In this document: positions 1 through 12,092 of the stretch, piece by piece | How the letters are laid out: each line of letters opens with the position of its first letter | Position numbering within the stretch: position 1 is the stretch's first letter | Assembly: GCA_031285415.1 (NCBI GenBank) | Contig: JAITWF010000126.1 | Span: forward strand, 1-14,097 | Direction of reading: 5' to 3' | DNA: 14,097 bases | DNA from: Deferribacteraceae bacterium | GTDB lineage: Bacteria > Chrysiogenota > Deferribacteres > Deferribacterales > JAISNW01 | Translations under genes and position numbers: made by a program | The notes under the pieces: generated by a model | What the model was told of the DNA's origin: nothing | Seen by the model: the letters and a program-made list of their open reading frames with translations, nothing else | Databases searched by the model: none

Positions 1-1645
1 TGCCCTCTGGGTCTACAGCATGAACAGCGCAAGCTATGCATGGGTCGAAAGAGTGGATTGTACGGATAACTTCCAACGGTTTGTGCTCATCAGCGATAGG
101 GTTGCCAAGTAGAGACGCCTCGTATGGGCTAGCCACGTTAGCAGCGTCTTTAGGGCCTGCATTCCATGTAGATGGAACAACAGCCTGATAGTTAGCAATT
201 TTGCCATCTTCGATAACGATCCAGTGTGATAGGAAACCACGAGGAGCTTCCAACATACCAACGCCTTCGAATCTGCCTTTAGGGAACTCTGTTACGTGGT
301 TAGCGTATGTCTGATCCCCATTAGCGATGTTTGCACACAACATATCGATGCTCTCGATAGCTCTGTCAGCCATGATCGAGCAACGGATCGCTCTTGCAGC
401 ATGACGACCTAGTGTCGAGTGGAGCTGTGCAGGCTTCAACTTAGCAGCAGAAAGTGCGCCGTTCACGAGGCCAACAGTTTTCTGGTCGCCAGCTGTGTAT
501 GCAGCAAGGATCTGTGCCAAAGGTCCAACCTGATAAGGTTTGCCATTATAGCGAGGAGCCTTACACCATGTATACTTGCCATTATCTTCAAAATCAGTGT
601 ACTTAGGCTCTGATTTACCCTTATATGGGTGAAGGTTTGTAGCCTCTGTGTACCATGCGTGAGCAGTGTCCTCTGACATGCCGTTACGGAATGCAGCGTT
701 GTTCCAGTCTTTCAGCTCTGTAAATGCGCCCTCAGTGATCAAGCCGCCTTTATCAAGGAACGCTGAATTTTTGGTATCAGTTGGGAACTCTGGAACTGAC
801 ATATAGTTCGTAACGCCAGCACCGTAGCTAAACCACTCAGGGTAGAAGCTAGCAACTGCAAGAACGTCTGGTATATAAACTTTGTTTACAAACTCTTGAG
901 CTTTCAACACATTCTCTCTAACAAGAGCGATGCGCTCAAAGTTTAGAGTAGCAGGGTTGTCTACATTAATAGCTGTAGCAACACCACCAACGCAAAGGTT
1001 CTGGATGTGTGGCTCTTTACCGCCAAGAACTGCAACAGCTTGAGAAGCCATACGCTGATAGTCAAGTGCTTTTAGGTAGTGAGAGAACGCAATCAGGTTA
1101 ACCTCTGGTGGAAGCTTCATTGCAGGGTGACCCCAGTAAGCGTTGCCGAAGATACCGAGTTTGCCACGCTGTACGAAAGCAGCAAGACGCTCTTTCGCAG
1201 CGGTGAACTCATGCACGTTGTTGCCAGACCAGTCAGAGTAGCCCTGTGCGATCTGTGCAGCTTTTGCAGGATCAGCTTTCAGAGCAGATACTATATCAAC
1301 CCAGTCTAGTGCAGATAGGTGATAGAAGTGAACTATGTGGTCTTGCACGCAGTGTGCAGATGTAATAATGTTACGGATGTACTGAGCGTTAAGAGGGATC
1401 TCAACTTTCAGAGCGTCCTCAACTGCACGTACAGAGGCGAGCGCATGAGTGGTTGTGCAAACGCCGCAGAAGCGTTGTGCGAAAACCCATGCATCACGAG
1501 GGTCTCTGCCTTGCAATATTGTTTCGATACCACGAAACATCTGTGCAGACGACCAAGCTTTTGTTACCTTTCCCCCGCCTACTTCAACGTCTACCCTAAG
1601 GTGACCTTCTATCCTTGTAACTGGATCTACTTTAATTCTAGCCAT
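1..1645 (-). CDS. hybC: [NiFe] hydrogenase large subunit (HybC-like), 3' end truncated by the window edge
   Basis: Minus-strand ATG at 1645 gives MARIKVDPVTRIEGHLR, the canonical large-subunit N-terminus. The L1 motif RDAWVFAQRFCGVCTTTHAL lies around 1440-1500. Translating 100..2 gives ...HSFDPCIACAVH-AVDPEG, the C-terminal DPCxxCxxH Ni-binding motif (Cys, so not a NiFeSe enzyme) plus the start of the protease-cleaved extension. The reading frame is continuous over the whole span. RBS AGGAG lies 7 nt upstream (1652-1656). Confidence 0.93.
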   Translation of the reverse strand, partial: MARIKVDPVTRIEGHLRVDVEVGGGKVTKAWSSAQMFRGIETILQGRDPRDAWVFAQRFCGVCTTTHALASVRAVEDALKVEIPLNAQYIRNIITSAHCVQDHIVHFYHLSALDWVDIVSALKADPAKAAQIAQGYSDWSGNNVHEFTAAKERLAAFVQRGKLGIFGNAYWGHPAMKLPPEVNLIAFSHYLKALDYQRMASQAVAVLGGKEPHIQNLCVGGVATAINVDNPATLNFERIALVRENVLKAQEFVNKVYIPDVLAVASFYPEWFSYGAGVTNYMSVPEFPTDTKNSAFLDKGGLITEGAFTELKDWNNAAFRNGMSEDTAHAWYTEATNLHPYKGKSEPKYTDFEDNGKYTWCKAPRYNGKPYQVGPLAQILAAYTAGDQKTVGLVNGALSAAKLKPAQLHSTLGRHAARAIRCSIMADRAIESIDMLCANIANGDQTYANHVTEFPKGRFEGVGMLEAPRGFLSHWIVIEDGKIANYQAVVPSTWNAGPKDAANVASPYEASLLGNPIADEHKPLEVIRTIHSFDPCIACAVHAVDPEG

Positions 1646-1668
1646 TTATATTCTCCTCGATTATTAAA

Positions 1669-2844
1669 TTAATGCGCCCCTGCTGCGTGTGCTTTCGGCA
1701 GCAGTTTTAGCAATCTTGAAAGTATGATGTATGCCAATACTTCAAGAGCTATAAATCCATATGTAAGCATAAATTCAACTACAGATGGGAAGTATGGATT
1801 CCACTCGTCACCAGGGTTGAAGCCTACAAGGTATACGTTCATACGATACAAGCCGCCGCCGAAGCAGAGCATCATAGCCATAAAGAACGCTTTTCTTGGA
1901 GTCAGTTTCGTTGCAAACATAACTATCGGAATCACTATCAGTGCCGTCTCTATCCAGAACATTGCTGAATGGAAGCCCGATGTGAATAGGTAGCCAATTT
2001 TGCCACCGACTACAAGGCTGATAACACGAATAGCTAGCCAGAATGCGCCAACGAATGGGATGAAGCGAGCGATCTCCAACGCTTCATACTCGTATGGGCG
2101 TTTGAAACCTGCTGACGATAGACCAACTTCAAACTGTACGATAGATAGACCCATAAGTAGGGCGTTCGATACGAACAGAAGTGGTAGAAAGTTTGTCTGC
2201 CAGAGTGGGTGCAGTTTGTATCCAGTGATGATAAATAGCGAGCCAAGGGACGACTGGTGCATAGTAGGCAGAGTCATACCAAGAGCGATGATAAATATCA
2301 GCACTTTGTCGAGTTTAGGAGCTACAAATAGAGCCATGCTTTTAAAGAAGCCGTCTTTAAATGTTGCAAGTTTCTCGAGAACTGCTGGGAGAAACTCGAT
2401 AATAAGGATACAGGTATACGCCATAACGCAGAGCGCAACCTCAAACATGATCGAGTTTGGCTGCCACTGTGATGGAACGAAGAAGTTGTAAACGTTCCAG
2501 TAACGGCCTATATCGATAATAACGGATGTACCAGCAAGGGCATAGCCAAACATACTGGCAACGACCGCAGAGCGGATCATTGGGTGGTATTTCCAACCAT
2601 TTAAGATATAGCAGATAATTGCAAGTGCGTAACCGCCGCAGGCAAATGCTGTACCAATAGAAACGTCATACGCAAGCCATACCCCCCAAGGGTAGCCGTC
2701 GTTAAGATTTGATACTGCGCCGATGCTTGTAACAAAGCGGTAGCCTGCTACTGCAAAGGCAAATGCAACGAGCAACGCAAGCACAACTGTCACAGGTGTG
2801 ATCAGTTTCCCCGGTGCTTGAACATAATCATCATGATGGCTCAT
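1669..2844 (-). CDS. hybB: Hydrogenase-associated integral membrane subunit, NrfD/PsrC family (HybB-like, presumed quinone-interacting)
   Basis: 391 aa, about 10 hydrophobic helices. Motifs GYPWGVW, GTAFACGG, IDIGRYWN and MHQSSLGSL align colinearly with E. coli HybB as I recall it. It shows ATGA start/stop overlap with the upstream hybA (2841-2844). Confidence 0.85.
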   Translation of the reverse strand: MSHHDDYVQAPGKLITPVTVVLALLVAFAFAVAGYRFVTSIGAVSNLNDGYPWGVWLAYDVSIGTAFACGGYALAIICYILNGWKYHPMIRSAVVASMFGYALAGTSVIIDIGRYWNVYNFFVPSQWQPNSIMFEVALCVMAYTCILIIEFLPAVLEKLATFKDGFFKSMALFVAPKLDKVLIFIIALGMTLPTMHQSSLGSLFIITGYKLHPLWQTNFLPLLFVSNALLMGLSIVQFEVGLSSAGFKRPYEYEALEIARFIPFVGAFWLAIRVISLVVGGKIGYLFTSGFHSAMFWIETALIVIPIVMFATKLTPRKAFFMAMMLCFGGGLYRMNVYLVGFNPGDEWNPYFPSVVEFMLTYGFIALEVLAYIILSRLLKLLPKAHAAGAH

Positions 2845-3776
2845 GCGTGACCTCCTTTGTGATCATTATTCCTCTCGTCCTTGTCACGCTTAAACTGATG
2901 TTTCAGAGCGATCGCACATAGTGTGACATATAGAGCGGCAGGAGCTGCCATCCATTTGTATATTGTGTGCTGAATAGTTTCAGACTCTGTAGCATACGAG
3001 TAGTCAGGAAGAGTTGGCATGCCAAGTTTTTCAAAGTCAACTTTAGCTATGTATATAACGTTTGTGCCGCCATATTCATGCTCGCCGTAGACTTTATCTT
3101 GGAAGTAGTAGCCAGGCTTCTCTGCGATTCTACGTTTTGCTTCCGCCATAAGGTCGGTGCGTTTGCCGTAGATAACAGCTTTAACAGGGCAAGTTTCAAC
3201 GCAAGATGGCATACCTTTTGTTTTAAGGTTTGTCTCTCTGCAAAGCTCGCATTTAACGATTTTTGGGAATGTTTCATGCCATTCCCAAGATGGAACGTTG
3301 AATGGGCAAGCCATCTGGCAGTAGCGGCAACCGATACAGATCCCTTTATCGTACTCAACGATACCGGTCTCTGGGTTTTTTGTCATCGCTTTTACAGGGC
3401 ATGCAGATACGCAACCAGGTGCGTTACAGTGCATACACTGACGTTTGATGAATGCATACTCTGATTTATTTTCAGGGTTCTGATACATCTTAATAATATT
3501 TTTCGTACGATAATCAAGCTCTTGTACGTTCGCCCATCTTACTTCAGCGGTATCTGCAGGTGCAAGAGAGACGGTATCGTCTAGATTAAAGTTTGAATTA
3601 CGGCAAGCAGTAACACACGCCTGACAGCCCACGCAAAGTGAGGAATCGTATAGCATTCCTACTTCGTCTGGACCGAAAGTTATGGCTTTGCTCGCATGAG
3701 CCGCAACAGGGGAGAGCGCAAGAGCCCCCGCACCGATAGCGGCAGCTTTCATAAAGCCGCGTCTTGTACTTTTCAT
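2841..3776 (-). CDS. hybA: Periplasmic 4x[4Fe-4S] ferredoxin-like electron-transfer subunit with Tat signal and C-terminal membrane anchor (HybA-like)
   Basis: The N-terminus MKSTRRGFMKAAAIGAGALALSPVAAHA is a twin-arginine signal. There are four Cys clusters (CVGCQACVTAC, CMHCNAPGCVSACP, CIGCRYCQMACP, CELC...CVETCP). A hydrophobic C-terminal helix (AAPAALYVTLCAIAL) is present. AGGAG RBS lies 9 nt upstream. Strong colinear similarity to E. coli HybA as I recall it. Confidence 0.9.
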   Translation of the reverse strand: MKSTRRGFMKAAAIGAGALALSPVAAHASKAITFGPDEVGMLYDSSLCVGCQACVTACRNSNFNLDDTVSLAPADTAEVRWANVQELDYRTKNIIKMYQNPENKSEYAFIKRQCMHCNAPGCVSACPVKAMTKNPETGIVEYDKGICIGCRYCQMACPFNVPSWEWHETFPKIVKCELCRETNLKTKGMPSCVETCPVKAVIYGKRTDLMAEAKRRIAEKPGYYFQDKVYGEHEYGGTNVIYIAKVDFEKLGMPTLPDYSYATESETIQHTIYKWMAAPAALYVTLCAIALKHQFKRDKDERNNDHKGGHA

Positions 3777-3781
3777 GTGCC

Positions 3782-4858
3782 TTACTCCTTAGGTAATGTT
3801 GAGCCTTTGCCGGCTGCAAATCCTAGAGCCGCACCAGCGATTGCGCCAACGCCCAACGCAGAGATTGCGCTAACTGGTTTGCCAGAAGGGGTAACCTTGG
3901 TTGGTGGGAACCAAGCTGGAGATGTAGGATCGATTATGTCTACTTTATCAAAGATAGATGTGTTGAACACAAGTCTCTCTGTGCAACCAACGCAAGGGTG
4001 ACCGATAGAAACAGGCCATGCCACGTTGTCGTTGAAGCGAAGTGTAGAGCAGTTTGCATATGTAGCTGGGCCTTTGCAGCCGAGTTCATAGAGGCAGTAG
4101 CCAAGTGCGTGGCCTTCGTCGCCGAAATCTTTCGCAAAACGACCTGCGTCGAAGTGTGGACGACGCTCGCAATGCTCGTGGATTCTACGTCCGTATGCAA
4201 ATAGAGGTCTGTTCTCTGCATCCATCTCTGGGAGCTTGCCCATTGTGAGGAAGTAGAGGATAGTAGCGATTAGGTTGTATGGGCTAGGAGGGCAACCTGG
4301 TAGGTTGATAAGAGGTCTGTCCTCAACTAGTGATGAAACGCTAACAGCGCCAGTAGGGTTTGGTGCAGCTGCCTGAACGCCACCTAGAGACGCACATGTA
4401 CCCATGCTGATTACAGCGAATGCGCCATCTGCTGCAACTCTAAGAGAGTCAACAGCCTTTGTACCGCCAACCTGGCAGTAGATACCGTTCTCTGCGAGAG
4501 GTACTGCACCTTCGCAAACAAGGATATACTTGCCTTTGTGCGCTACGATAGCGTCGTGTAGGGCTTTTTCAGCCTGCTCACCAGAACCAACCATAAGTGT
4601 CTCATGATACTCAAGATTGATAACATCCAAAAGAAGGTTCCCTAAGCCAGGGTGGCTTGAACGTAAAAGTGACTCAGAACAACCAGTGCACTCCTGAAAA
4701 TGGAGCCAAATCACTGGAGGTCTATTGTCGGATTCAGCCGCCGCAGCTACTTTTGGAATCATTGTTGCGGGTAATCCCATAACTGCAGTAACTGCCGTGA
4801 TTGCTTTCATAAAATCGCGGCGCGAGAAATCTGCCCCAAACAAGCTAGCATCTAACAT
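3782..4858 (-). CDS. hybO: [NiFe] hydrogenase small subunit with Tat signal peptide and C-terminal transmembrane anchor (HybO-like)
   Basis: The ORF track gives 3782..4936. The ATG at 4858 is preferred because it yields MLDASLFGADFSRRDFMKAITAVTAVMGLPATMIPKVAAA, a typical Tat leader with RR at residues 13-14. GGGGGA lies 5 nt upstream of it. The upstream ATG at 4936 sits inside a TATAAT hexamer. The mature protein carries RPPVIWLHFQECTGC (proximal-cluster Cys motif), GxCxxxGG and GCPP motifs, and a C-terminal hydrophobic helix SAISALGVGAIAGAALGFAAG. Confidence 0.88.
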   Translation of the reverse strand: MLDASLFGADFSRRDFMKAITAVTAVMGLPATMIPKVAAAAESDNRPPVIWLHFQECTGCSESLLRSSHPGLGNLLLDVINLEYHETLMVGSGEQAEKALHDAIVAHKGKYILVCEGAVPLAENGIYCQVGGTKAVDSLRVAADGAFAVISMGTCASLGGVQAAAPNPTGAVSVSSLVEDRPLINLPGCPPSPYNLIATILYFLTMGKLPEMDAENRPLFAYGRRIHEHCERRPHFDAGRFAKDFGDEGHALGYCLYELGCKGPATYANCSTLRFNDNVAWPVSIGHPCVGCTERLVFNTSIFDKVDIIDPTSPAWFPPTKVTPSGKPVSAISALGVGAIAGAALGFAAGKGSTLPKE

Positions 4859-4934
4859 TTTTTCCCCCAAAAGTGTTTCCGCCCAATAAGCTCGAAAAGA
4901 TAGACTCCAAGCGCAGTTGCAGGGCATAACACTC

Positions 4935-4940
4935 ATTATA
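4935..4940 (-). promoter_or_regulatory. Candidate -10 hexamer (TATAAT on the minus strand) of the hydrogenase operon promoter
   Basis: A perfect TATAAT on the minus strand sits about 80 nt upstream of the preferred hybO start (4858). The only -35-like hexamer (TTTACA) is at a 12-nt spacer, so the promoter may depend on an activator. The region is AT-rich. Confidence 0.25.
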
Positions 4941-5132: not shown

Positions 5133-5262
5133 ATAACCCCTCCCCCTTGGGGGGAGGGTGGCACGCAGTGTCGGGAGAGGGGATAGTTTTGAAAATATAT
5201 TATTTGATAATAAATTACAGATAACCCCTCTCCCTTGATCCCTCCCCCCAAGGGGGAGGGGA
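5133..5262. repeat. Cluster of C-run/G-run palindromic elements: two near-identical CCCTCCCCC-loop-GGGGGAGGG stem-loops plus a long-range inverted repeat GGGAGAGGGG/CCCCTCTCCC
   Basis: The stem 5138-5146 / 5150-5158 is 9 bp with loop TTG. The stem 5240-5248 / 5252-5260 is 9-10 bp with loop CAA. Both are preceded by ATAACCCCTC (5133-5142 and 5221-5230). 5173-5182 GGGAGAGGGG is the exact reverse complement of 5225-5234 CCCCTCTCCC, separated by a 42-nt AT-rich spacer. Confidence 0.7.
5138..5158 (-). terminator. Possible intrinsic terminator of the lepA-uppS-ferredoxin operon (distal GC hairpin followed by TTATAATTAA on the minus strand)
   Basis: On the minus strand the 9-bp GC stem is followed by TTATAATTAAC. 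The proximal hairpin (5240-5260) begins 17 nt after the ferredoxin stop codon but lacks a U-tract. Confidence 0.35.
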
Positions 5263-5277: not shown

Positions 5278-6354
5278 CTACTTCTCAAACTTTAATAGAT
5301 CGTCGAATAGCTCTTTGAGGTTTAATGTTTTACTAGGCACTATATATCCGTAGTAGCACGATATGCGGCACATTCCGCACGATGTGCAGTTGGATGGGTT
5401 GAATAGGATCTGTTTGTCATCTTCGCTCATATGGAATGCGCCTGTAGGACACATCCGTGTGCAAACTTTGCATAGAACGCAATCTGTAGCAATCTCAAAA
5501 TTATAAAAGTATGCGCCGATACGGATCTCATCCTTTAGAAGTTTGCCGCACGAAAGGAGTGACTCGATAAGTAGTTTGCGCTTGGCTGGCACCTCCTTAG
5601 TGGTGCGAGCGGTGGTGCGAGTTGGTAGCTCTTGCGGCGTTAGCAGTGCAGCGCTCTTCACTAAGGTATCGGCGGCGTTATCTCTAAAGAAACCGAACAT
5701 TCCTCTGCGGTCTACCGTTTGCGCCATCTTAAGAGCTTTCTCCTCCTTCGGATCGGGGGCTGAAATCGGGAACTGTTTTGGAAATTTTATAGTGATACTG
5801 CTCTGCTCGTGCGTAATCTGTACGCCATCGAGATATTCAAAGTATGTAGAGAGCTTTTTTAGCTCCTCTATCTCATCAGTAACGATATCTCTGCCATATT
5901 TAGAGGCACAGGCAGTACAATCGGGCGTTTCAATTATAATCTTGCTAGCACCATGGGTGTATAGATATAGAAGATCGGGAAGCCCTATTATTCCTAGGCA
6001 CTCCATCATGGCAGCGTCGGATTTGCTCACCTTACAGCTAAGTTTAAGCTCCCCTTCGGGGGTGATCTTCCCTAGATATTCCTTTAAAAAGTTCTCATAC
6101 TCCATCTCTCGTATGTTGAAAACGCCTGTGGGGCAGATGTTAACGCAGATACCGCAGTATGTGCAACTATCCCAATCGATATTGACGGTGCTCCCTACGT
6201 CGCCCACCTTTATTGCGCCTGTAGGACAGTTGGTTTCGCATAGGTTGCATTTGGAGAGCTTGTGGCACATCTTATTGCACCGCTCGGGGCGCACCCCTAC
6301 GGCTTGACTCATCCCCACAAGCACGGAGTTGGCTAGGTTGAACTTACCGAACAT
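5278..6354 (-). CDS. Cytoplasmic polyferredoxin: N-terminal and C-terminal 2x[4Fe-4S] ferredoxin domains flanking a ~180-aa middle region of unknown function
   Basis: 358 aa with no signal peptide. Motifs are CNKMCHKLSKCNLCETNCP (atypical spacing), CTYCGICVNICP, CVLCKVCTRMCP and CTSCGMCRISCYYG, plus a CTAC pair in the middle region. The start overlaps the uppS stop by 11 nt. An alternative start is the ATG at 6312 (MSQAVGVRPERC...). Neither start has a strong SD. Confidence 0.75.
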   Translation of the reverse strand: MFGKFNLANSVLVGMSQAVGVRPERCNKMCHKLSKCNLCETNCPTGAIKVGDVGSTVNIDWDSCTYCGICVNICPTGVFNIREMEYENFLKEYLGKITPEGELKLSCKVSKSDAAMMECLGIIGLPDLLYLYTHGASKIIIETPDCTACASKYGRDIVTDEIEELKKLSTYFEYLDGVQITHEQSSITIKFPKQFPISAPDPKEEKALKMAQTVDRRGMFGFFRDNAADTLVKSAALLTPQELPTRTTARTTKEVPAKRKLLIESLLSCGKLLKDEIRIGAYFYNFEIATDCVLCKVCTRMCPTGAFHMSEDDKQILFNPSNCTSCGMCRISCYYGYIVPSKTLNLKELFDDLLKFEK

Positions 6355-7030
6355 CTATCTGCTCATCTGTTTTGCCGAAGCGACGTTGGCGATTATTAAA
6401 GCTCTCTATAGCAAGCTTTAAATCGGTGTCGCCGAAATCTGGCCAGAGTGTTTCGGTGAAGTACATCTCGGCATATGCAAGCTGCCAGAGCATAAAGTTT
6501 GATATGCGCAGCTCGCCCCCTGTGCGGATCAGCAGATCCACATCGGATAGCTCTGGATGATATAGATACTTTGCAAAGCTCTCCTCTGTAAAGTCGTCGC
6601 CACTTTCAGCCAATCGTTTCGCCGCCTGCACGATCTCGTCTCTGCCGCCGTAATCGAGCGCAATATTCAGGATCATTCCTGTATTATCAGCCGATTCAGC
6701 CATAACGGTCTCTAACGCTCTCCTTCCAGATGTTGGGATACGATCGAGTCTACCAGAGACGATAAGCTTTACATTGTTTTTGATAAGCTCTCTCGCCTCT
6801 TTGGTGATATAATCCTCTAGAAGTTTCATCAGAAAGCTGACCTCGTCCTGTGGGCGAAGCCAGTTCTCTGTGGAGAAGGCGAATAGGCTTAATATATCGA
6901 CTCCAGCGTTATCGGCAGCTCGCACGATACGAGTGACCGATTTGACACCCTCACGATGTCCCATAACTCTGGAGAGACTGCGACGCTTCGCCCACTCGCC
7001 GTTGCGATCCATTATGATTGCAATGTGCAT
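6344..7030 (-). CDS. uppS: Undecaprenyl-diphosphate synthase (cis-prenyltransferase)
   Basis: HIAIIMDRNGEWAK...FAFSTENWLRP...RTGGELRISNFMLWQ...RRFG matches the conserved UppS blocks. The ATG immediately follows the frr stop (TAAATG, same frame). The purine-rich stretch AAAGAG lies upstream. Confidence 0.9.
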   Translation of the reverse strand: MHIAIIMDRNGEWAKRRSLSRVMGHREGVKSVTRIVRAADNAGVDILSLFAFSTENWLRPQDEVSFLMKLLEDYITKEARELIKNNVKLIVSGRLDRIPTSGRRALETVMAESADNTGMILNIALDYGGRDEIVQAAKRLAESGDDFTEESFAKYLYHPELSDVDLLIRTGGELRISNFMLWQLAYAEMYFTETLWPDFGDTDLKLAIESFNNRQRRFGKTDEQIDVR

Positions 7031-7588
7031 CTATATTTCCATTAACTCTTTCTCTTTAACTGCGGTGATCTCGTCTAACGATTTGATCTGTGCGTCGGTG
7101 ATCTTCTGGATCTCATCGACTGCACGTTTTGATTCATCTTCAGAGATCGCTTTATCCTTCTCTAGCTTCTTAACTTTATCATTTGCGTCACGACGTTCGT
7201 TGCGTACGGCGATCTTTGTATCTTCGCACATCTTTTTGACTACCTTTACGAGATCTTTACGACGCTCTTCGGTAAGTCTCGGTATCGGAATGCGCACTAG
7301 TTTACCGTCATTCGATGGGTTCAGACCTAATCCGCCGTTTAATATGGCCTTTTCGATAGCAGGGATCAGTGAAGAGTCCCACGGCTGTACTGTTACCATA
7401 TGAGCGTCTGCCACATGTAGCGTGCCAACGCCAGCTAGTGGGGTTGGTGTGCCATACGCCTCTACCCTGATATTATCAAAGATCGATGTGCTGGCACGCC
7501 CAGAGCGTACAGCTTTTAGTTCGCCTTTGAAGTGCTGGATTGTTTTATCCATCTTCTCTTTCATCTCGTTGATAGTTGTTTTAGACAT
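7031..7588 (-). CDS. frr: Ribosome recycling factor
   Basis: The ORF track gives 7031..7630. The internal ATG at 7588 is preferred because AGGAG lies 8 nt upstream and it gives the typical ~185-aa RRF (MSKTTINEMKEKMDKT...). Conserved blocks GTPTPL, VRIPIPRLTEERRKDL and VRNERRDANDK are present. Confidence 0.92.
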   Translation of the reverse strand: MSKTTINEMKEKMDKTIQHFKGELKAVRSGRASTSIFDNIRVEAYGTPTPLAGVGTLHVADAHMVTVQPWDSSLIPAIEKAILNGGLGLNPSNDGKLVRIPIPRLTEERRKDLVKVVKKMCEDTKIAVRNERRDANDKVKKLEKDKAISEDESKRAVDEIQKITDAQIKSLDEITAVKEKELMEI

Positions 7589-7633
7589 GTTTATATTCTC
7601 CTGATTGATTGCATTTATGTACCTAATCACGTC

Positions 7634-10942: not shown

Positions 10943-11299
10943 ATGCCGAGTTTTGCGAACCCATTTCAGGGAAATGTGAACAGGAAGGTGACGAAGCTGG
11001 AGCTTATGCAAGCTCTTCGTATCGATATAGCGTCGGAGCTTGAGGCGATCTATCTATACGATGCGCACGCACTATCAACTGACGATCCGATCGCTAAAAG
11101 GGTGCTAGAGGATATCCGTGACGAGGAGAAGCAGCATGTGGGCGAGTTAATGACGCTTCTGCGCTATCTGGATCCAGGATTTGCTGCACTTTTAGCCGAT
11201 GGCGAGGGCGAGGTGAAGGAGATGATGGCGGATCTCGGTATAAAGGAGCGTCAAGTGGGCGATCTCACGATCGGTAGCCTTATAAAAGAGGATGATTAA
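10943..11299 (+). CDS. Encapsulated ferritin-like cargo protein (EncFtn) with C-terminal encapsulin targeting peptide
   Basis: 118 aa. ELEAIYLYDAH...DP...RDEEKQHVGE gives the Glu/Glu/His pattern (E32, E62, H65 in this ORF's numbering) of the EncFtn ferroxidase site. The C-terminus ...GDLTIGSLIKEDD matches the encapsulin cargo-loading consensus (L/I)xIGSL(K/I). It is immediately followed by the shell gene. Confidence 0.85.
   Translation: MPSFANPFQGNVNRKVTKLELMQALRIDIASELEAIYLYDAHALSTDDPIAKRVLEDIRDEEKQHVGELMTLLRYLDPGFAALLADGEGEVKEMMADLGIKERQVGDLTIGSLIKEDD
11261..11296 (+). other. Encapsulin cargo-loading (targeting) peptide coding segment at the EncFtn C-terminus
   Basis: DLTIGSLIKEDD. The G-S-L-I core resembles known targeting peptides (e.g. 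SLGIGSLK). Confidence 0.7.
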
Positions 11300-12092
11300 T
11301 ATGGATTATTTAGGAAGAGAGGGTGCGCCTATCTCCGCAGATCTGTGGCGCAATATAGATAATACAGTGGTCGATGTGGCAAAGAAATCATTAAAGGTAC
11401 GGCGGTTTCTCCCCCTTGTATCTGTAGGGACGGAGGCGCAATATGCAAAGATAGAGCGGTTTGACAAGGGTGAGGAGATTGAGGAGTGGTTCGTAAAGAC
11501 TACTAACCGCCAACTCGTCGAGATTCCGCAGATATATAGCGATTTTTGGCTCAACTGGCGAGATCTGAACGGTGCTATAGATCTCTCCCCCTGCATGCGT
11601 GCCGCAACGGTACTCTCCAAACATGAGGATGAGATGATCTTCTACGGAATTCCTGCTTTAAAGCTGGAGGGGCTATTGACGGTGAAAGGCTCACAGCAGG
11701 TAAAGCGTGGCAACTGGGGGGAGGGTGAAAACGCCTTTGCAGATGTAGCTACTGGGATAGCAATGCTTGAAAAGGCTGGACGTAGCGGCAGATACGCCCT
11801 TGTGGTAAGCCCCGATCTATACATGCAGCTACAGCGCATTCAGGCAGGTACTGGAGTTTTAGAGAGTAAGCGCATTCAGAAGCTCGTCGGCTCTGATATT
11901 ATAAAATCTACCGCTCTAAAGGATAAGACGGCATTCTTAGTATGCGCAGAGAGCTACTGCATGGATCTAGCTGTGGGGCAGGATATAACGACCGCATACC
12001 TTGAATGCGTCGACCTAAACCATCATTTCAGAGTGATGGAGACCGCTCTTTTAAGAATTAAATGCCCAGATGCTATTGTTTTATTCACATAG
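11292..12092 (+). CDS. Family-1 encapsulin shell protein (HK97-fold, linocin M18-like)
   Basis: 266 aa (263 aa if the start is the ATG at 11301, which has AAGAGGA 8 nt upstream). It aligns colinearly with T. maritima encapsulin as I recall it: SADLWRNIDNTVVDVAKKSLKVRRF, HEDEMIFYG, ALVVSPDLY, LAVGQDITTAYLE and a C-terminal ...AIVLFT. It overlaps the cargo gene stop. Confidence 0.88.
   Translation: MINMDYLGREGAPISADLWRNIDNTVVDVAKKSLKVRRFLPLVSVGTEAQYAKIERFDKGEEIEEWFVKTTNRQLVEIPQIYSDFWLNWRDLNGAIDLSPCMRAATVLSKHEDEMIFYGIPALKLEGLLTVKGSQQVKRGNWGEGENAFADVATGIAMLEKAGRSGRYALVVSPDLYMQLQRIQAGTGVLESKRIQKLVGSDIIKSTALKDKTAFLVCAESYCMDLAVGQDITTAYLECVDLNHHFRVMETALLRIKCPDAIVLFT

What the first reader, a model, noticed from the sequence alone, without database searches (positions are those of the whole stretch)
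5278..6354. Atypical polyferredoxin appended to the lepA-lepB-pyrH-frr-uppS housekeeping operon
A 358-aa cytoplasmic protein has two 2x[4Fe-4S] ferredoxin modules separated by a ~180-aa region with no motif I can assign. Its first cluster has unusual spacing (C-x3-C-x6-C-x2-C-x3-CP). Its start overlaps uppS by 11 nt, implying translational coupling to an operon that in E. coli continues with cdsA instead. It sits directly upstream of the Hyb hydrogenase and may be a redox partner or an unrelated electron carrier.
Basis: partly seen in the sequence, partly recalled or inferred. Interest (0 to 1): 0.5.

Follow-up and report, generated by a model that had tools for sequence, protein, structure and literature searches.

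The report
Rare five-cluster ferredoxin, TorD-chaperone partner
The gene is real and encodes a rare, uncharacterised iron-sulfur protein whose unexplained middle is a divergent MvhD-type cluster domain plus a Tat-signal-like "RR" linker; in other genomes it usually sits beside a TorD-type chaperone for molybdenum enzymes, not beside uppS or hydrogenase genes.

Summary
The ORF exists on the minus strand (6354..5278, 358 aa). It overlaps uppS by 11 nt and lies 341 bp upstream of a hyb-type [NiFe] hydrogenase operon. It is not a fusion artefact: about 30 full-length relatives share the architecture, and this is all that 1.84 billion representative proteins yield.

Twenty cysteines are invariant across the family:
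- eight in each of the two 2x[4Fe-4S] modules;
- four in the middle domain (C107, C119, C146, C149).

After the middle domain comes an invariant internal (S/T/D)-R-R-x-F/L-F motif resembling a Tat signal.

Synteny is linked neither to uppS nor to hydrogenase:
- a TorD-family chaperone gene lies directly upstream in 8 of 13 loci;
- an orthologous radical SAM gene lies beside it in 3;
- more distant relatives sit in molybdoenzyme or Moco clusters.

Best reading (about 0.5): a cytoplasmic NapF-like accessory electron carrier for maturation of Tat-exported Mo/W enzymes, relocated here behind uppS. This is a new variant of a known kind, of moderate interest.

The parts
5278..6354 (-). Polyferredoxin gene (358 aa): Fd(2x[4Fe-4S]) - MvhD-like domain - RR linker - Fd(2x[4Fe-4S])
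   Evidence: ORF and translation. Identical protein P0001 is annotated '4Fe-4S binding protein [Deferribacteraceae bacterium]'. Twenty invariant Cys across 18 diverse relatives.
6121..6279 (-). N-terminal 2x[4Fe-4S] ferredoxin module (residues 26-78): atypical motif C26-x9-C36-x2-C39-x3-C43P plus canonical C64-x2-C67-x2-C70-x3-C74P
   Evidence: Pfam Fer4/Fer4_9 at residues 35-78. Invariant Cys listed. C30 is conserved only in the close clade.
5755..6072 (-). Middle alpha/beta domain (residues ~95-200) with four invariant Cys (C107, C119, C146, C149); divergent MvhD/FlpD-like, putative [2Fe-2S] site
5692..5715 (-). Internal twin-arginine (Tat-signal-like) motif V-D-R216-R217-G-M-F220-G at the start of the linker helix
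   Evidence: R216 is invariant; R217 and F220 are >=90% conserved in 18 relatives of 23-60% identity. Variants include SRREFL, SRREFF, TRRELF and SRRGFF. The segment is low-confidence in the AF2 model: pLDDT <50 for residues 212-250.
5335..5499 (-). C-terminal canonical 2x[4Fe-4S] ferredoxin module (residues 286-340; C292/295/298/302P and C323/326/329/333)
6344..6354 (-). 11-nt overlap between the end of uppS and the start of the polyferredoxin gene
   Evidence: Sequence ...CAGATAGATGTTCGGTAAG... read in both frames.
6344..7030 (-). uppS (undecaprenyl diphosphate synthase), last housekeeping gene of the lepA-lepB-pyrH-frr-uppS string
   Evidence: Pfam Prenyltransf E=3.4e-79.
5137..5261 (-). 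Large G/C-rich hairpin immediately 3' of the polyferredoxin stop codon: 22-bp perfect outer stem plus nested stem. Probable terminator or insulating repeat element before the hydrogenase operon.
   Evidence: Inverted repeats. Terminator-like site. RNA fold -79.9 kcal/mol, z=-7.0. The palindrome motif has 4 matches against 0.01 expected. No Rfam family.
1..4936 (-). Neighbouring hyb-type [NiFe] hydrogenase operon (small subunit with Tat motif SRRDFMK, HybA-like, NrfD/HybB-like, large subunit running to the contig end). This is context, not shown to be functionally linked.
   Evidence: Pfam NiFe_hyd_SSU_C/Oxidored_q6, Fer4_11 and NrfD. Large-subunit frame of 548 aa ending ...DPCIACAVH....

Best explanation
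The gene encodes a soluble, cytoplasmic five-cluster iron-sulfur protein.

Architecture:
- an N-terminal 2x[4Fe-4S] ferredoxin module whose first Cys is displaced;
- a divergent MvhD/FlpD-like connector domain with four invariant Cys, most likely binding a [2Fe-2S] cluster;
- a linker that begins with an invariant twin-arginine, Tat-signal-like helix;
- a canonical C-terminal 2x[4Fe-4S] module.

Proposed function. It belongs to a rare, unnamed family whose usual genomic partner is a TorD/DmsD/NarJ-family chaperone, sometimes preceded by a conserved radical SAM enzyme. The family most likely acts as a NapF-like accessory electron carrier during cytoplasmic maturation of Tat-exported Mo/W-bisPGD enzymes.
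- The cluster chain would deliver low-potential electrons to the radical SAM maturase and/or to the Fe-S or cofactor sites of the apo-enzyme.
- The internal RR helix would be the surface that docks onto the TorD-type chaperone, as remnant Tat leaders do for NarJ.

In this genome the gene has been relocated directly behind uppS. It is probably co-transcribed with uppS and terminated by a strong hairpin. The hydrogenase neighbourhood is probably incidental.

What is shown and what is inferred:
- Shown: the ORF, the Cys pattern and RR conservation, rarity, synteny, and remote MvhD homology by profile comparison.
- Inferred: the cluster types, chaperone docking, the maturation role, and co-transcription.
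For: Architecture and conservation:
- 20 Cys plus R216 are invariant in 18 relatives down to 23% identity.
- Only Fer4 models hit in Pfam and NCBIfam.

Middle domain is MvhD-like:
- hhalign gives 94.9%, P=4.5e-8. It stays at 90.6% without L013. Reversed and 20 shuffled controls give <=1.7%.
- The top five of 177,635 PDB sequences are all MvhD, in one register with the Cys aligned.
- The L013 relative carries a bona fide Pfam FlpD domain (E=7e-12) between its two Fd modules.
- MvhD is a [2Fe-2S] electron connector (PMC12350162).

Synteny:
- A TorD-family gene (PF02613) lies immediately upstream in L001, L005, L038, L039, L041, L042, L044 and L045, i.e. 8 of 13 loci.
- Orthologous 440-aa radical SAM genes (42-54% identity) lie next to it in L005, L044 and L046.
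- P0032 lies 2 kb from a Mo-oxidoreductase A/B operon with TorD.
- Distant relatives lie beside a Tat-FdhA-like gene plus TorD (L012), in a moaA-moaC-PsrABC-like operon (L013), and beside mobA/mobB/moaE (L009).

Precedents:
- NapF is a cytoplasmic 4x[4Fe-4S] protein that aids NapA maturation (PMC10609526).
- TorD/DmsD-fdh operons with associated 'fer4' genes have been noted before (PMC4464133).

Rarity: 18 hits at E<=1e-3 among 1.84 billion representatives.
Against: - No TorD-family or molybdoenzyme gene lies in this 14-kb contig. Here the neighbours are uppS and a hydrogenase.
- 5 of 13 loci lack an adjacent TorD gene.
- The window protein itself gives no Pfam FlpD hit. Only 2 of 14 close relatives hit weakly, best E=0.042.
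- In L013 the relative sits inside a structural Psr-like/HdrD-like operon. That fits a genuine electron-transfer subunit better than a maturation factor.
- No experiment on any family member was found.
- Binding of the RR helix to TorD is pure inference.
Confidence: 0.5

Rival explanations
1. It is a structural electron-transfer subunit (an 'electron wire') of a cytoplasmic or membrane-associated redox complex. It would pass electrons between a low-potential donor and partner enzymes during catalysis, as MvhD and polyferredoxins do in Mvh/Hdr complexes. Candidate donors include the ferredoxin pool, an Hdr-like module and a hydrogenase. It would have no role in maturation.
For: - Five putative clusters in series, including an MvhD-like connector.
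- MvhD's known role is electron connection.
- The Dehalococcoidia relative (L013) is encoded inside a PsrABC-like plus HdrD/DsrMK-like operon.
- 5 of 13 loci lack an adjacent TorD gene.
Against: - No HdrA, flavoprotein or other catalytic partner is conserved next to the family.
- The most frequent neighbour is a chaperone, not an oxidoreductase (8 of 13).
- The invariant Tat-like RR motif is not explained by a pure wire function.
Confidence: 0.25
2. It is mainly the dedicated reductant of the conserved neighbouring radical SAM enzyme, reducing its [4Fe-4S] cluster for SAM cleavage. TorD adjacency would then reflect the radical SAM enzyme's substrate.
For: Orthologous radical SAM genes (42-54% identity, full length) lie directly upstream or one gene away in three diverged clades. 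These are L005, L044, and L046, where the stop and start overlap. Dedicated ferredoxins next to radical SAM enzymes are common (general knowledge).
Against: The radical SAM gene is present in only 3 of 13 loci and is absent from the window contig. The TorD pairing is much more frequent and occurs without the radical SAM gene.
Confidence: 0.15
3. One reading: it is a redox partner or accessory protein of the adjacent Hyb-type [NiFe] hydrogenase.
For: - It lies 341 bp upstream of the hydrogenase operon on the same strand.
- A 52%-identical homologue follows hypA-hypB in L007.
- The hydrogenase small subunit is also a Tat substrate (SRRDFMK).
Against: - Only 2 of 13 loci have any hydrogenase-related neighbour.
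- A very stable hairpin terminator-like element separates the two units.
- The Hyb operon already encodes its own ferredoxin subunit, HybA.
- TorD-family chaperones are associated with molybdoenzymes, not hydrogenases (PMC4464133, PMC10609526).
Confidence: 0.08
4. The ORF is an assembly or frameshift fusion artefact, or a decaying pseudogene.
For: None beyond the unusual architecture and a single low-coverage MAG contig.
Against: More than 25 independent full-length relatives share the domain order. All 20 cluster Cys and the RR motif are intact in the window copy. GC content (47.2%) matches its neighbours.
Confidence: 0.01

Closest known systems
MvhD / FlpD domain (Pfam PF02662), the [2Fe-2S] electron-connector subunit of Mvh-Hdr, Fdh-Hdr and Elp-Hdr complexes
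   Same: The core beta-alpha-beta-(Cys loop)-alpha segment aligns in one register: '..V-x-C-x-G....G-A....C-x-x-C...G' against 'VMCSG...EGADG...GCHxGDCH..SGN'. There are four conserved Cys and a position between electron-transfer modules. A distant full-length relative (L013) has a bona fide FlpD domain at the same place.
NapF (cytoplasmic Fe-S accessory protein of periplasmic nitrate reductase; TIGR00402)
   Same: A soluble multi-[4Fe-4S] protein with a non-export twin-arginine motif preceding a ferredoxin module. It is genetically tied to maturation of a Tat-exported Mo-bisPGD enzyme and to that enzyme's chaperone (the RR motif of NapF is from my own knowledge).
   Different: NapF is about 160 aa, has its RR motif at the N-terminus, has no MvhD-like domain, and works with NapD rather than a TorD-family protein. 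The TIGR00402 score is 38 bits against a cut-off of 102, and only over the N-terminal Fd module.
Polyferredoxins MvhB/VhuB and FwdF of methanogens
   Same: Multiple clostridial-type [4Fe-4S] modules in one chain. These are the best whole-protein PDB sequence hits: FwdF at 1.7e-12 and MvhB at 8.8e-12.
   Different: Those proteins carry 8-12 tandem [4Fe-4S] clusters with no intervening non-Fd domain and no RR motif. The similarity is confined to the Fer4 modules. NF045874 scores 46 bits against a cut-off of 600.
'fer4/hybA' genes of DmsD/TorD-fdhGHI operons (with DUF3305/DUF3306), noted by Bay et al. 2015, PMC4464133
   Same: The Rhodobacterales 655-680-aa relatives found here (L010-L012, L014, L019) are such genes. 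They share the Fd - middle domain - 'G-T/S-R-R-Q-I/V-T-R' - Fd core and the TorD neighbourhood.
   Different: They are twice as long, with an extra N-terminal CxC domain and a C-terminal Cys-rich tail. They lack the four middle-domain Cys and share only 22-25% identity. Their function is likewise unknown.

Membership tests
2x[4Fe-4S] clostridial-type ferredoxin domain (Pfam Fer4 clan) | Two CxxCxxCxxxCP-type motifs per module, scoring above the Pfam gathering thresholds | tested here: met
   Fer4 60 bits (cut-off 21.1), Fer4_7 58.4 (27) and Fer4_9 53.1 (27), with modules at residues ~35-78 and 292-336. The first motif is non-canonical (C-x9-C-x2-C-x3-CP).
MvhD/FlpD (PF02662) | Sequence match to the family profile at or above the curated threshold | tested here: not met
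   No FlpD hit for the window protein at E<=1. Only 2 of 14 close relatives hit weakly, best E=0.042.
MvhD/FlpD (PF02662) | Remote homology by profile-profile comparison, with the conserved Cys in register | tested here: met
   hhalign gives 94.9%, P=4.5e-8 over 61 columns, and 90.6% without L013; reversed and shuffled controls give <=1.7%. The top five PDB profile hits are all MvhD. C119 and C149 align to MvhD Cys; C146 is offset by 2 residues.
MvhD/FlpD (PF02662) | Same three-dimensional fold as solved MvhD (e.g. 5odc_D) | tested here: inconclusive
MvhD/FlpD (PF02662) | Binds a [2Fe-2S] cluster and docks to HdrA-type flavoproteins | not testable with these tools
   Four invariant Cys are compatible with a cluster. 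No HdrA gene was seen in any of the 13 family loci.
NapF (TIGR00402) | Profile score above the equivalog cut-off; about 160 aa with four Cys motifs and an N-terminal RR motif; nap operon context | tested here: not met
   38.2 bits against a cut-off of 102.2, over residues 20-84 only. The protein is 358 aa, its RR motif is internal, and there are no nap genes in the window.
Methanogen polyferredoxin (VhuB/MvhB, NF045874) | Profile score above the cut-off; tandem array of >=6 ferredoxin modules | tested here: not met
   46.2 bits against a cut-off of 600. Only two Fd modules are present.
Tat-exported ferredoxin (HybA/NrfC type) | N-terminal SRRxFLK motif followed by a hydrophobic h-region and a cleavage site | tested here: not met
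   The RR motif is at residues 216-217, internal. It is followed by an amphipathic, charged segment (RRGMFGFFRDNAADTLVKSAALLTPQELP), not a hydrophobic h-region. This was judged by inspection only; no Tat predictor was run.
Unnamed 'TorD-partner polyferredoxin' family defined here | Fd - 4-Cys middle domain - (S/T/D)RRx(F/L)F linker - Fd, about 350-400 aa, with 20 invariant Cys | tested here: met
   The window protein carries every invariant position of alignment A3 and is 38-60% identical to 13 close members.
Unnamed 'TorD-partner polyferredoxin' family defined here | A TorD-family (PF02613) gene immediately upstream | tested here: not met
   Absent from the 14-kb window contig, though present in 8 of 13 family loci. 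The rest of this MAG could not be examined.

The most novel reading that the evidence does not exclude
The invariant internal twin-arginine helix is a built-in Tat-signal mimic. Through it, a five-cluster Fe-S protein docks into the signal-peptide groove of a TorD-family chaperone. This would create a previously unrecognised redox-active co-chaperone module, optionally with a dedicated radical SAM enzyme. Such a module could reductively assemble or modify Tat-dependent Mo/W enzymes, or gate chaperone release and export by redox state.
Probability: 0.2. Interest if true: 0.7.

Novelty: new variant of a known kind. Interest (0 to 1): 0.42.

Why it matters
How complex Mo/W-bisPGD enzymes acquire their Fe-S clusters and cofactors while held by TorD/DmsD/NarJ-type chaperones, before Tat export, is only partly understood. 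The role of NapF-like ferredoxins in this process remains disputed (PMC10609526).

A compact, conserved chaperone-ferredoxin (-radical SAM) cassette offers a clean system to test whether such chaperones recruit redox partners through Tat-like peptides. In this cassette the ferredoxin carries an MvhD-type connector and an internal Tat-like peptide.

For genome annotation, the work shows three things:
- This '4Fe-4S binding protein' is a definable family with a diagnostic signature.
- Its placement behind uppS and next to a hydrogenase in this MAG should not be used to infer function.
- The MvhD-like domain occurs outside Hdr-type bifurcating complexes.

Tried and rejected
1. Pfam and NCBIfam at E<=1 return only Fer4-type models. 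Per-member scans of the middle region at E<=10 give only scattered noise plus weak FlpD. Rejected.

2. Sequence search of the PDB.
- The whole protein gives ferredoxin-module hits only.
- The close-clade middle-domain profile A2 gives nothing meaningful (AcrIIA15 and DsbD at E>0.2).
- Only the broader profile A4 brought up MvhD.

3. Structure searches.
- The full-length AF2 model has pLDDT 64.5, with the N-terminal Fd and residues 212-250 poor.
- Foldseek against the PDB gives no hit at E<=0.001.
- So the fold either lacks a close solved relative or is modelled differently from MvhD.

4. The search for homologous proteins with the middle-domain alignment A4 returned no hits, even for family members. 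I treat this as a quirk of the word-index step, not as evidence.

5. Fusion or frameshift artefact: rejected.

6. Recent horizontal insertion: GC is 47.2% against 47.6% for the window, so no signal.

7. Rfam for the downstream hairpin: no family.

8. Literature on TorD with radical SAM and ferredoxin, or MvhD with TorD: no papers. S. oneidensis DmsG is TorD-like and its cytoplasmic partner DmsH is uncharacterised, which offers a loose analogy. I could not test whether DmsH is related.

It was rerun as A5.
Full report
**1. The observation**

The window is a complete 14,097-bp contig of a Deferribacteraceae MAG. The identical protein P0001 is recorded from a contig of that length and named '4Fe-4S binding protein [Deferribacteraceae bacterium]'.

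The ORF lies at 5278-6354 on the minus strand (ATG at 6354; 358 aa). Upstream on the same strand are lepA, lepB, pyrH, frr and uppS, all confirmed by Pfam.

The ATG lies 11 nt inside uppS. The start is credible because the N-terminus is conserved in homologues. UppS ends where its 62%-identical orthologue in L041 ends.

Pfam and NCBIfam detect only Fer4-type modules, at residues ~30-82 and ~286-336.

Downstream, after 341 bp, is a [NiFe] hydrogenase operon in E. coli hyb order.

**2. It is a real but very rare family**

A search of 5.8 billion proteins gave 16 clusters with the same full-length architecture, at 38-57% identity. An exhaustive HMMER search of 1.84 billion representatives with the middle-domain profile gave 18 hits at E<=1e-3. 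About 16 of these are genuine, and several are new and more distant members of 349-400 aa.

An alignment of 18 diverse members, down to 23% identity and including an ANME-2 archaeal ORF, shows 20 invariant cysteines:
- C26, C36, C39, C43 and C64, C67, C70, C74 (first Fd module);
- C107, C119, C146, C149 (middle domain);
- C292, C295, C298, C302 and C323, C326, C329, C333 (second Fd module).

It also shows invariant R216, with R217 and F220 conserved in >=90% of sequences.

C30 is clade-specific, so the true family motif for the first cluster is C-x9-C-x2-C-x3-CP. A fusion or frameshift artefact is excluded.

**3. The middle region**

*(a) Residues ~95-200 form a compact alpha/beta domain.* The domain-only AF2 model has pLDDT 89.5 and pTM 0.84. 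By eye it resembles the MvhD/FlpD pattern, so I tested that resemblance.

Evidence for MvhD/FlpD homology:
- A distant full-length relative in a Dehalococcoidia MAG (L013) carries a bona fide Pfam FlpD domain (E=7e-12) exactly between its two ferredoxin modules.
- FlpD is the most frequent, though weak, Pfam hit among close relatives: 2 of 14, best E=0.042.
- With the broad middle-domain profile (A4), the top five of 177,635 PDB sequences are all MvhD chains. These are 5odc_D, 8rvv_F, 8rvu_F, 9sfi_K and 7bkb_F, at E 0.17-0.35, in one register.
- hhalign of A4 against a small FlpD/MvhD alignment gives 94.9% probability, P=4.5e-8, over 61 columns.
- Without L013 the probability is still 90.6%. 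Against the four PDB fragments alone it is 43%.
- Reversed and 20 column-shuffled controls reach at most 1.7%.

I therefore call the domain a divergent MvhD-like, four-Cys (probably [2Fe-2S]) connector. It is supported by profile evidence and unconfirmed at the fold level. MvhD's established role is as a [2Fe-2S] electron connector (PMC12350162).

*(b) Residues ~205-285 are a linker.* It starts with the invariant motif (S/T/D)-R-R-x-(F/L)-F, for example VDRRGMF here and SRREFL, TRRELF or SRRGFF elsewhere. This closely resembles the SRRxFLK Tat consensus.

The motif is internal, however, and is followed by an amphipathic, charged helix rather than a hydrophobic h-region. AF2 is unconfident here, with pLDDT <50 for residues 212-250. 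That would fit a partner-dependent segment.

**4.

Thirteen family loci were examined.

| Neighbour | Loci |
|---|---|
| TorD/DmsD/NarJ-family gene (PF02613) immediately upstream, same strand | L001, L005, L038, L039, L041, L042, L044, L045 (8 of 13) |
| Orthologous ~440-aa radical SAM gene (CNRDCFFC; 42-54% identity over full length) adjacent | L005 and L044 (rSAM-TorD-polyFd); L046 (rSAM-polyFd, overlapping) |
| Hydrogenase-related genes | window; L007 (hypAB) (2 of 13) |
| uppS | window; L041 (2 of 13) |

Further points:
- These TorD-like proteins match the TorD, type II DMSO-reductase chaperone, EbdD and DmsD models, all below the equivalog cut-offs.
- L005 also has a Mo-oxidoreductase A/B pair 5 kb upstream.
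- The most divergent member (P0032) lies 2 kb from a Mo-oxidoreductase operon that includes TorD.
- In L041 the TorD-polyFd pair is convergent with uppS-frr-pyrH-lepB. The window arrangement, co-directional with an 11-nt overlap and no TorD, is therefore a local rearrangement of a shared neighbourhood.

More distant relatives keep the molybdoenzyme theme:
- Rhodobacterales 655-680-aa proteins lie beside a Tat-signal FdhA-like enzyme and TorD. Bay et al. 2015 noted this arrangement earlier (PMC4464133).
- A Dehalococcoidia protein lies in a moaA-moaC-PsrABC-like operon.
- An ANME-2 protein lies beside mobA/mobB/moaE.

**5. The window's local context**

Immediately after the stop codon lies a 125-nt structure at 5137-5261. 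It has a 22-bp perfect G/C stem and a nested stem, folding at -79.9 kcal/mol with z=-7.0. No Rfam family matches it.

It most simply acts as a terminator or insulator. The polyferredoxin is thus the last gene of the lepA-uppS string and is separate from the hydrogenase operon. GC content gives no hint of recent acquisition.

**6. Mechanism**

The shown facts support a cytoplasmic chain of five clusters: 2x[4Fe-4S], an MvhD-like site, then 2x[4Fe-4S]. The family co-evolves genomically with a TorD-type chaperone and, in part, with a specific radical SAM enzyme.

By analogy with two precedents, I infer a maturation-phase electron-delivery role for Tat-dependent Mo/W enzymes, with the RR helix as the chaperone-docking element (confidence ~0.5):
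- NapF, a cytoplasmic multi-[4Fe-4S] protein with a vestigial RR motif, which interacts with NapA and is needed for its Fe-S assembly in R. sphaeroides (PMC10609526).
- NarJ, which binds a remnant Tat leader (established knowledge, not tested here).

Rivals:
- a bona fide catalytic electron wire (0.25; favoured by the L013 operon);
- a dedicated radical SAM reductant (0.15);
- a hydrogenase partner (0.08);
- an artefact (0.01).

**7. Novelty and verdict**

No Pfam or NCBIfam model describes the family, and no paper was found on it. Its parts are known kinds: ferredoxin modules, an MvhD-like connector and a NapF-like RR motif. The combination and the tight TorD pairing are undescribed, so I rate it a new variant of a known kind.

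Interest is moderate (0.42). It is not a housekeeping-operon oddity or a hydrogenase subunit. It is a tidy candidate for a redox-active partner of TorD-type chaperones.

Noticed in passing
window 5137-5261: A 22-bp perfectly complementary G/C-rich inverted repeat with a nested 10-13-bp stem lies right after the polyferredoxin stop. Each arm is itself a palindrome, CCCTCCCCC(NN)GGGGGAGGG. The RNA fold is -79.9 kcal/mol (z=-7.0) and there is no Rfam match. It could be a terminator, a REP/MITE-like element, or the scar of the rearrangement that placed the gene behind uppS.
   Followed up: partly
window 10943-12092 (+): An EncFtn-like cargo gene (118 aa) overlaps by 8 nt a family-1 encapsulin shell gene (Linocin_M18, E=7e-60). 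The pair is divergently transcribed from lepA. This is an encapsulated-ferritin iron-storage nanocompartment.
   Followed up: no
L005 5298-6620; L044 301-1635; L046 1-1095: An unnamed ~440-aa radical SAM family (CNRDCFFC motif plus an N-terminal CxxC) is conserved next to the TorD/polyferredoxin genes in three diverged lineages, at 42-54% identity. It has no NCBIfam equivalog; the best weak hits are HxsC, MoaA and the W-cofactor oxidoreductase maturase.
   Followed up: partly
L038 574-1368; L039 722-1384: A DUF2625 gene lies just upstream of the TorD-polyferredoxin pair in two loci. In L039 small cytochrome c7-like ORFs are also present. It may be a further member of the cassette.
   Followed up: no
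L041 297-2953: In a related Deferribacteres-type contig the TorD-polyferredoxin pair is convergent with uppS-frr-pyrH-lepB, with 17 bp between the stops. The uppS neighbourhood is therefore shared with the window but the polyferredoxin is inverted, which implies a local inversion and loss or relocation of the TorD gene in the window lineage.
   Followed up: partly
window 3782-4936 (-) and 7031-7630 (-): The mechanically listed starts are probably too far upstream. The hydrogenase small-subunit Tat motif SRRDFMK is at ORF residues 38-44, so the likely start is M27. The frr ORF starts at a GTG 14 codons before a plausible ATG (MSKTT...), and the Pfam RRF match begins at residue 34.
   Followed up: no
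L010-L012, L014, L019 (e.g. L012 9161-11167): The Rhodobacterales/Roseibium 655-680-aa '4Fe-4S' proteins next to Tat-FdhA-like, TorD, DUF3305 and DUF3306 genes share the Fd - middle - RR - Fd core with the window family. They lack the four middle Cys and add an HdrA-like N-terminal 'LCxCxGxQxID' domain and a C-terminal Cys-rich tail.
   Followed up: partly
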